This document shows, one piece after another, positions 35,893 through 36,740 of a stretch of 64,000 bases of DNA (the stretch's first letter is position 1; every line of letters begins with the position of its first letter). The DNA is from Eledone cirrhosa (lineage: Eukaryota). The position numbers and the translations under genes are program-made. The notes under the pieces were generated by a model. That model saw only the letters and a list, made by a program, of their open reading frames with translations. It had not been told where the DNA came from and did no database searches. The stretch spans positions 50,344,001 through 50,408,000 of the forward strand of contig OZ024742.1 of the NCBI GenBank assembly GCA_964016885.1. The letters are read 5' to 3'.

Positions 35893-36740
35893 ATATATGA
35901 ATGTATATGTACTATATTTTGCAATGCAGTGTAATTAAAACCATTTTGAAGACCATACGCTATTGTTTTAAAGTAGCGACATTGTCGCTTACTTAAATTT
36001 TCGGCAGGCAGGGGGGAGATAAATTGACAGCGCTGTTTCGAACTGATTGGTACATGTCAAAACTCAGTACTCTCCCTGTCTGCCGAAAATTATGTATGTT
36101 GGCTTCTTATAGAATTCCAGTAACAATCAGGAACTGATTTTACAGAGCGGTCGCCGGTCCAGCAAAAATTAAAATTAGAATTGGTGCTCTAAAATAGCGA
36201 TATAGGGAGAGTAGTGAGTTTTGACAAGTACCAATCAGTACGAAACAGCGCTATCAACTTATCCCCTCCCGTCTGCCGAAAATTTAAGTAAGCGACAATG
36301 TCGCTACTTTAAAACAATACCGTATGTCTTCAAAATGCTTTCAATTAAGCATACAGTGTATTGCAAAATACACTATATATACATTCATATATATATCGCT
36401 ATTTCAGAGCGCCAATTCTAATTTTTAATTTCTGCTGGGCCGGCGACTGCTCTGTAAAATCAGTTCCTGATTGTTACTGGAATTCTATAAGAAGCCAACA
36501 TACATAATTTTCGGATGACAGGGAGAGTACTGAGTTTTGACATGTACCAATAAGTACGAAACAGCGCTGTCAACTTATCTCCCCCCGCCTGCCGAAAATT
36601 TAAGTAAGCGACAATGTCGCTACTTTAAAACACTAGCGTATGGTCTTCAAAATGCTTTTAATTAAGCATACAGTGTATTGCAAAATACACTATATATATA
36701 CATTCATATATATATCGATATTTCAGAGCACCAATTCTAA
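35893..36740. repeat. 316-bp hammerhead-bearing unit: ~1.7 tandem copies plus one inverted copy
   Basis: gagtt TTGACA(A/T) gtac-caat(c/a)a-gtac GAAA cagcgct(g/a) TC aactt at 36216-36260 and 36532-36576; mirror at 36021-36065. Confidence 0.85.

What the first reader, a model, noticed from the sequence alone, without database searches (positions are those of the whole stretch)
35893..36740. Second small HHR unit family with a covarying rod structure
Seen: 316-bp tandem units with a U3-A8 HHR, plus relatives at 50190-50732 and 32320-32525. In each, stem I extends through an internal loop into a long helix whose sequence differs but whose pairing is kept: aattttcggcaggcagggg/ccctgtctgccgaaaatt; cagcaaaaacaaaggg/tcctttgtttttcctg; caacaaacaaaggg/ccccttgtgtgttg. 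The 420-bp satellite has an analogous rod and loosely similar motifs (tccagca; ggtgc..gaaa..cgata). Inference: a diversified group of structured non-coding mobile RNAs selected at the level of RNA fold.
Basis: partly seen in the sequence, partly recalled or inferred. Interest (0 to 1): 0.75.

Follow-up and report, generated by a model that had tools for sequence, protein, structure and literature searches.

The report
Structured hammerhead retrozymes with Penelope footprints
This is one decayed copy of a 315-base non-coding repeat present thousands of times in this animal genome; its predicted self-cutting RNA fold is kept by paired base changes across eight subfamilies, and its copies end like those of Penelope-type jumping genes, which likely copy it, a kind of element already known in animals.

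Summary
The quoted helices and hammerheads are real, but 35893-36742 is not a plain tandem. It is a head-to-head insertion: one unit on the minus strand, 1.6 units plus a 29-base tail on the plus strand. The 32320 relative has a C3-G8 core, not U3-A8. An 18-mer of the unit has 3,333 genomic hits (control 0). Seven subfamilies (69-92% identical) show paired changes in the rod, hammerhead stems I and II and three 3' hairpins (permutation p≤2e-4). The core pair switched C-G/U-A at least twice. An eighth subfamily (63-69%) folds alike. Insertions are 5'-truncated and end at two fixed sites in (TA)n; 49 of 56 scorable two-armed insertions carry one end of each kind, as do 8 of 8 in a coding Hydra-type Penelope-like element of this genome. 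No unit follows a coding frame (0 of 200 loci). Verdict: a non-LTR retrozyme, i.e. a non-autonomous Penelope-like element, a known kind; U3-A8 is published. Cleavage, expression, circles and the helper element were not shown. The 420-bp satellite is analogous, not alignable. The scan reported this kind, probably this family, earlier on other DNA of this genome.

The parts
35892..36204 (-). Arm 1: one full subfamily-A unit; its 3' end (35893) runs into the target microsatellite, without tail
36026..36060 (-). Hammerhead core to cut site (U3-A8; A9 changed to U; one stem II mismatch); rod arms 35996-36014 and 36074-36091
36204..36394 (+). Arm 2, inner part: 5'-truncated unit (unit bases 126-314), joined head-to-head to arm 1
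36221..36255 (+). Hammerhead core to cut site (U3-A8; stem III closing pair broken)
36395..36713 (+). Arm 2: full unit, with predicted closing helix P0, hairpins P1-P4, rod with hammerhead, hairpins P5-P7 and TA tract
36537..36571 (+). Hammerhead core to cut site (U3-A8; A9 changed to U); rod arms about 36506-36523 and 36583-36600
36714..36742 (+). Tail: first ~29 bases of a further unit, the second fixed 3' end
35770..35892 (.). (TA)n(TG)n target microsatellite at the end of arm 1
50194..50732 (-). Subfamily B insertion: partial unit 50681-50732, full unit 50354-50677, unit bases 1-159 at 50194-50350; U3-A8 hammerhead 50491-50523 with decayed stem II
32326..32543 (.). Subfamily C remnant, two-armed: minus arm 32326-32480 (unit bases 48-202, C3-G8 hammerhead 32350-32385), plus arm 32479-32543; both 3' ends lost; abuts a mid-RT fragment of a Penelope-like element
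3221..6841 (.). Separate 420-bp hammerhead family of analogous build (minus arm 3221-6694, plus arm 6713-6841); not alignable to the unit
13157..16000 (-). Frameshifted copy of a coding Hydra-type Penelope-like element whose family has intact 785-codon frames elsewhere; the class of helper, not a proven partner

Best explanation
This is a decayed copy of a high-copy, non-coding 315-base repeat family with a conserved predicted hammerhead fold, likely copied through RNA by the reverse transcriptase and endonuclease of Hydra-type Penelope-like elements (a non-LTR retrozyme). Shown: copy number, absence of a reading frame, paired base changes, two fixed 3' ends in (TA)n, 5' truncation, head-to-head arms. 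Inferred steps: (1) a partial tandem copy is transcribed on the hammerhead strand into RNA longer than one unit; (2) the hammerhead would cut once per unit, probably poorly as a monomer, and the 13-20-bp rod that spans the cut would hold the cut ends together, favouring ligation to a circle or keeping multimers contiguous; (3) the helper endonuclease would break (TA)n DNA, and the two DNA ends would prime cDNA at the unit's AU tract and 28 bases further on, which needs a template running past the unit junction; (4) the two cDNAs stop at variable points and join head-to-head. Folds that support these steps spread, so subfamilies keep pairing while inserted copies decay. The template looks like a monomer circle in the young 310-base subfamily, but in the older ones, including this locus, it may often be a dimer of unlike units.
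For: Copy number: 3,333 and 2,351 exact motif hits, controls 0. Longest ATG frame 26-36 codons. Covariation: 23 of 64 pairs with two-sided changes, 200 cells against 75 shuffled and 11-43 slid; subfamily-level co-change rod 72 vs 37.7, hammerhead 76 vs 45.3, other helices 30 vs 3.3, p≤2e-4; pairing kept in 30 of 43 between-subfamily states vs 100 of 346 private variants, p=4e-7. Core pair C-G or U-A in 151 of 162 copies, two changes on the tree, single U-A clade rejected at p-AU 1.4e-4. G-U 12 vs A-C 3 on the hammerhead strand. The subfamily found afterwards folds alike (z -4.85). Ends: 201 of 234 outer 3' ends at the TA tract or tail; 49 of 56 scorable two-armed loci have one of each, 27.8 expected, p=3e-9. 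Coding Hydra-type element: 28 of 29 ends at two sites, 8 of 8 two-armed loci mixed. Same layout described for Penelope-like elements (PMC8557442).
Against: No cleavage, expression or circle was observed. All three hammerheads at the focal locus depart from the subfamily majority, and only 111 of 162 copies keep an intact core. The lowest-energy monomer fold buries the core; the catalytic fold costs 0.7-7.9 kcal/mol more. In the preprint read, 8 of 9 tested frog dimers did not cleave. P0 and P1 show no two-sided change (conserved letters only), and RNAalifold did not recover P0-P3 or stem II. The rod register was anchored on the longest helix per subfamily, which favours pairing. No homology to the one coding family tested, whose tail is ~115 bases, not 28. 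Insertion ends do not pile up at the cut, so the genome does not record cleavage. A monomer circle is not supported for older subfamilies: 13 variants are shared by the two outer copies only, against 7 by other pairs (p=0.004 by site, p=0.42 by locus).
Confidence: 0.85

Rival explanations
1. The units are 5'-truncated pseudo-LTR remnants of a coding Penelope-like element not yet found, not independent elements.
For: Identical insertion anatomy; U3-A8 hammerheads occur in pseudo-LTRs (PMC4209133); frog retrozymes match pseudo-LTRs (preprint).
Against: What lies upstream of a unit head is the unit's own 3' end or a truncation junction (40 loci inspected directly). 25 of 200 loci have a Penelope-like protein fragment nearby, none running into the unit; the three closest cases were read and rejected. 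A pure 5.8-unit array exists. An ancestral pseudo-LTR origin is not excluded.
Confidence: 0.07
2. The paired changes arise at DNA level by repair or template switching between inverted repeats; the fold is not selected as RNA and the hammerhead is a dead passenger.
For: The rod and P5-P7 are near-perfect palindromes; many copies have broken cores; no RNA evidence.
Against: The 3-8 core pair is not in an inverted repeat yet switched in concert at least twice. Four-base stem II covaries. Private variants break pairs (246 of 346), so homogenisation after insertion is weak.
Confidence: 0.05
3. The repeat spreads as DNA (satellite turnover or rolling-circle DNA transposition) or by a LINE.
For: Tandem arrays exist.
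Against: Dispersed over many contigs, fixed 3' and variable 5' ends, one tail per two-armed insertion, no poly(A) end.
Confidence: 0.03

Closest known systems
Metazoan non-LTR retrozymes (Cervera and de la Pena 2020, PMC7229834; passages and section 14 read)
   Same: Non-coding ~170-400-base low-GC repeats, one type I hammerhead per unit, thousands of copies, highly self-paired prediction, co-occurring with Penelope-like elements; mussel has families of ~350-390 bp.
   Different: Circular RNA and cleavage were shown there, not here. Here most insertions are under two units and head-to-head with fixed ends; no hit for 'inverted' in that paper.
Non-LTR retrozymes as non-autonomous Penelope-like derivatives (bioRxiv 10.64898/2026.07.22.740005; parts 1-3 of 5 read)
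   Same: Same proposed dependence on Penelope-like elements; similar unit lengths.
   Different: Their evidence is co-occurrence and pseudo-LTR homology in frogs. Here the evidence is insertion anatomy, and no homologous pseudo-LTR was found.
Hydra-clade Penelope-like elements and non-autonomous Chlamys elements such as MRC1 (PMC8557442; passages)
   Same: Partial tandems, inverted 5'-truncated copy, 30-40-bp tail often at one end only, (TA)n targets, hammerheads in Hydra elements.
   Different: No open reading frame; the element is little more than a pseudo-LTR-sized unit.
U3-A8 hammerheads of Schistosoma Cercyon elements (PMC4209133; passages)
   Same: Same compensated core; short, often palindromic stem III.
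   Different: Those are minimal motifs in pseudo-LTRs; here both core types occur in one family with at least two switches, and stem I extends into a rod.

Membership tests
Non-LTR retrozyme | Type I hammerhead in each unit | tested here: met
   151 of 162 copies have C3-G8 or U3-A8; 111 of 162 have an intact core
Non-LTR retrozyme | Short (150-450 bp), low-GC, non-coding unit | tested here: met
   310-326 bases; GC 0.31-0.38; longest ATG frame 26-36 codons
Non-LTR retrozyme | Tandem copies with at least two hammerheads | tested here: met
   Two plus-strand hammerheads at the focal locus; 15 of 250 arms span two or more cut sites; a 5.8-unit array. Most arms span one.
Non-LTR retrozyme | Highly self-paired unit RNA | tested here: met
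   Predicted only: z -3.85 and -4.85; covariation
Non-LTR retrozyme | Self-cleavage | not testable with these tools
   Bench assay needed
Non-LTR retrozyme | Expressed as linear and circular RNA | not testable with these tools
   No RNA run was available to lay reads on
Penelope-like element insertion signature | Partial tandem with 5' truncation and inverted copy at the 5' end | tested here: met
   81 of 154 loci are two-armed head-to-head; 5' starts spread over the unit
Penelope-like element insertion signature | Tail at one end only; microsatellite target | tested here: met
   49 of 56 scorable two-armed loci; tail ends mostly at unit base 27-33
Autonomous Penelope-like element or its pseudo-LTR | RT/GIY-YIG frame running into the hammerhead repeat | tested here: not met
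   0 of 200 loci
Autonomous Penelope-like element or its pseudo-LTR | Sequence homology of the unit to a coding element's end | tested here: inconclusive
   None to one coding family (32 loci) and five window stretches; other coding families not surveyed

The most novel reading that the evidence does not exclude
The whole 315-base fold is the minimal cis-acting substrate of a Hydra-type retrotransposon: two single-stranded priming sites 28 bases apart beside an invariant long-range helix set both insertion ends, while the rod clamps the ribozyme cut so that reverse transcriptase crosses it on nicked circles or on chains of unlike units. The family would then be a natural mutational scan of a viroid-like RNA lineage, eight subfamilies deep, that swapped its catalytic core pair twice.
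Probability: 0.25. Interest if true: 0.7.

Novelty: new member of a known kind. Interest (0 to 1): 0.42.

Why it matters
The papers read propose that Penelope-like elements mobilise animal retrozymes; they show co-occurrence and homology, not the copying step. This family carries the same two-end rule as a coding Hydra-type element in the same genome, and its subfamily covariation marks which helices matter. That gives a small, ready substrate for testing trans-mobilisation, twin priming and the role of the hammerhead. The kind and the U3-A8 core are published, and the scan has reported the pattern repeatedly in this genome, so surprise is moderate.

Tried and rejected
Rfam: no hammerhead among the 150 of 203 matches listed. 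Pfam: 9 window proteins gave one weak GIY-YIG match (E=0.003) and one spurious match; Hydra assignment rests on the RWK, DKT and CxCX5C motifs named in PMC8557442. A-to-G editing scars: ratio to T-to-C 1.10 in the rod (p=0.61), 1.31 elsewhere (p=0.035); not taken as editing. Ends at the cut site: 1 of 250 3' ends within 6 bases, 7 of 250 5' starts within -3..+6 (about 8 expected if uniform); 17 of 29 arms pass the second cut, so a cut linear monomer as template was rejected. First-lap stop rates are biased by how loci were picked and were not used. Homology to the 420-bp satellite: not significant. Helper search: no match to the 785-codon family ends. Literature: hammerhead+octopus+Penelope gave only PMC8557442; C3-G8+U3-A8 only PMC4209133; two searches gave nothing on whole-unit covariation or two-ended insertion of retrozymes (listings only). 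The earlier-findings look-ups by sequence and by nearby place returned nothing. No covariance model was built and R-scape was not available.

Full report
Observation. The quoted arms are present at the stated places. Self-comparison shows 35892-36204 to be an inverted copy of the unit, joined head-to-head to a plus-strand arm made of a 5'-truncated unit (bases 126-314), a full unit and a ~29-base tail. Type I hammerheads lie at 36221 (+), 36537 (+), 36060 (-), 50523 (-) and 32385 (-). The first four have U3-A8; the last has C3-G8. All three quoted helices were read on the strand opposite to their hammerhead. The three focal hammerheads each depart from the subfamily majority (A9 to U twice, a broken stem III pair once), so this locus is a decayed copy, about 5% from its subfamily majority.

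Family. The genome is 3.0 Gb. DNA searches gave 1,908, 1,304 and 1,736 candidates, 40 scored each. Two exact motifs gave 3,333 and 2,351 hits against 0 for the reversed controls. I analysed 90 top-scoring loci and 70 loci taken in listed order from contig 1; 6 duplicates were dropped, leaving 154 loci and 167 near-full units. Of these, 162 were placed in seven subfamilies and 5 left out. Subfamily majorities are 69-92% identical. A further 40 loci, picked from the first 100 listed head-motif hits, revealed an eighth, 310-base subfamily 63-69% identical, in an array of five identical units and a partial with one mismatch. No subfamily has an ATG frame over 36 codons.

Fold. Five subfamily majorities were folded; the four large ones give the same branched structure: a long-range helix P0, hairpins P1-P4, a 13-20-bp rod capped by the hammerhead, hairpins P5-P7 and a TA tract. 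On a sequence-only alignment of 39 real copies, 91.7% of cells pair and 23 of 64 pairs change on both sides, including 6 of 8 rod pairs, 5 of 5 in stem I, 3 of 4 in stem II and the 3-8 core pair (19 U-A, 17 C-G). That is 200 cells, against 75 in shuffles and 11-43 in slid controls. Because copies are related, I repeated the test on subfamily majorities, re-pairing columns within regions: rod 72 vs 37.7, hammerhead 76 vs 45.3, other helices 30 vs 3.3, all p≤2e-4. Between subfamilies 30 of 43 alternative pair states keep pairing; among private variants of inserted copies 100 of 346 do (p=4e-7; rod alone 17 of 24 vs 27 of 102). The core pair needs two changes on a 25-copy tree, and one U-A clade is rejected (p-AU 1.4e-4); recombination between subfamilies was not excluded. 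The eighth subfamily, found after the structure was fixed, forms P0, P1, P2, the rod, stems I and II, P5 and P7 with other letters. Limits: P0 and P1 have no two-sided change; RNAalifold recovered the rod, stem I, P4, P5 and P7 but not P0-P3 or stem II; the rod register was chosen as the longest helix; the lowest-energy monomer fold buries the core by 0.7-7.9 kcal/mol.

Insertion anatomy. Of 154 loci, 81 are two-armed head-to-head. Of 234 outer 3' ends, 121 stop at the unit's TA tract, 80 after a tail ending mostly at unit base 27-33, and 33 elsewhere. Among the 81, 25 have an end of neither kind; of the other 56, 49 have one end of each kind (27.8 expected, p=3e-9). Most listed flanks are (TA)n or another microsatellite. 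5' starts are spread along the unit with no pile-up at the cut. This matches the layout described for Penelope-like elements: partial tandem, inverted truncated copy, 30-40-bp tail often at one end (PMC8557442, passages). The genome holds a young coding family with intact 785-codon frames bearing the Hydra motifs. In 20 of its loci, 28 of 29 3' ends fall at two sites about 115 bases apart (one not scorable), and 8 of 8 two-armed loci have one of each. It shares no alignable sequence with the unit, so it shows the class of helper, not the partner.

Not a pseudo-LTR. Of 200 loci (the 6 duplicates included) screened with 9-10 Penelope-like proteins, 25 have a fragment within 1.2-2.5 kb. None runs into a unit head; the three with a compatible orientation were read and show microsatellite, another element's end, or a mid-RT fragment in between. 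In the 40 head-motif loci the upstream sequence is the unit's own 3' end or a truncation junction.

Template. Arms cross the cut site freely (202 of 250 span at least one, partly by ascertainment; 15 span two or more), so the template is likely a ligated or nicked circle or an uncut multimer. Copies within an insertion are more alike than between loci (opposite arms 93.5% vs 91.5%, 49 pairs; same arm 91.5% vs 90.4%, 36 pairs). In 20 three-copy comparisons (5 mixed-subfamily cases dropped), 16 variants are shared by all three copies, 13 by the two outer copies only and 7 by other pairs (p=0.004 by site; 9 vs 5 loci, p=0.42). The focal locus shows 3 against 2. This leans towards dimers of unlike units in the older subfamilies; gene conversion between arms is an alternative. 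The identical array of the young subfamily fits a monomer circle. No editing signature was found.

Known and new. This works like, and on all sequence-testable features is, a non-LTR retrozyme (PMC7229834, passages and section 14; preprint 10.64898/2026.07.22.740005, parts 1-3 of 5). Cleavage and circular RNA could not be tested. U3-A8 is published for Penelope-like hammerheads (PMC4209133, passages). Supplements were not read; family lists in those of PMC8557442 and the preprint may include this family or its helper. Searches showed no report of whole-unit covariation in a retrozyme family, judged from listings and the passages named. The scan's own notes describe ~320-, 310- and 422-base families of this kind in this genome; the two-armed, twin-priming reading came from them and was tested here. 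Some notes call the host a cephalopod; I did not test that. The helix names P0-P7 and subfamily letters are mine; hammerhead numbering and RtcB-type ligation follow the papers read. Verdict: new member of a known kind, well supported as a selected RNA fold; interest 0.42.

Noticed in passing
window 3221-6841: The 420-bp satellite is itself two-armed: a long minus arm ending in (TA)n at 3221 and a short plus arm 6713-6841 ending at a second site; C3-G8 hammerhead in 8 units.
   Followed up: partly
window 13157-16000; L214-L233: Young Hydra-type coding element, 3.6-kb unit, 48,442 first-look candidates for its RT; two fixed 3' ends about 115 bases apart, longer than the 30-40-bp tail in PMC8557442.
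   Followed up: partly
window 59318-59372 (+) and 55994-56048 (-): Two identical hammerhead-like motifs with a long stem II flank the Penelope-like fragment at 57128-58318 in opposite orientation; a similar one at 23972-24022 (-).
   Followed up: no
window 8139-10453, 32540-34409, 46497-46886, 57128-58318: Further broken Penelope-like RT/GIY-YIG fragments; 32540-33197 is a 328-base internal duplication.
   Followed up: partly
L014:868-1431, L050, L115, L013: Units of different subfamilies, or of the 420-bp family, sit directly next to each other, suggesting insertion into the TA tract or flank of an older copy.
   Followed up: partly
all subfamilies, hammerhead core: In most subfamilies the lowest-energy fold pairs core bases with the cut-site region or stem III, giving a non-catalytic rod; this could be a built-in off state for the monomer.
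   Followed up: partly
window 29478-29552: Near-perfect 35-bp hairpin, matching microRNA models only below their gathering scores.
   Followed up: no
window 46854-47331: 27-base minisatellite beside a GIY-YIG-like fragment at 46497-46886.
   Followed up: no
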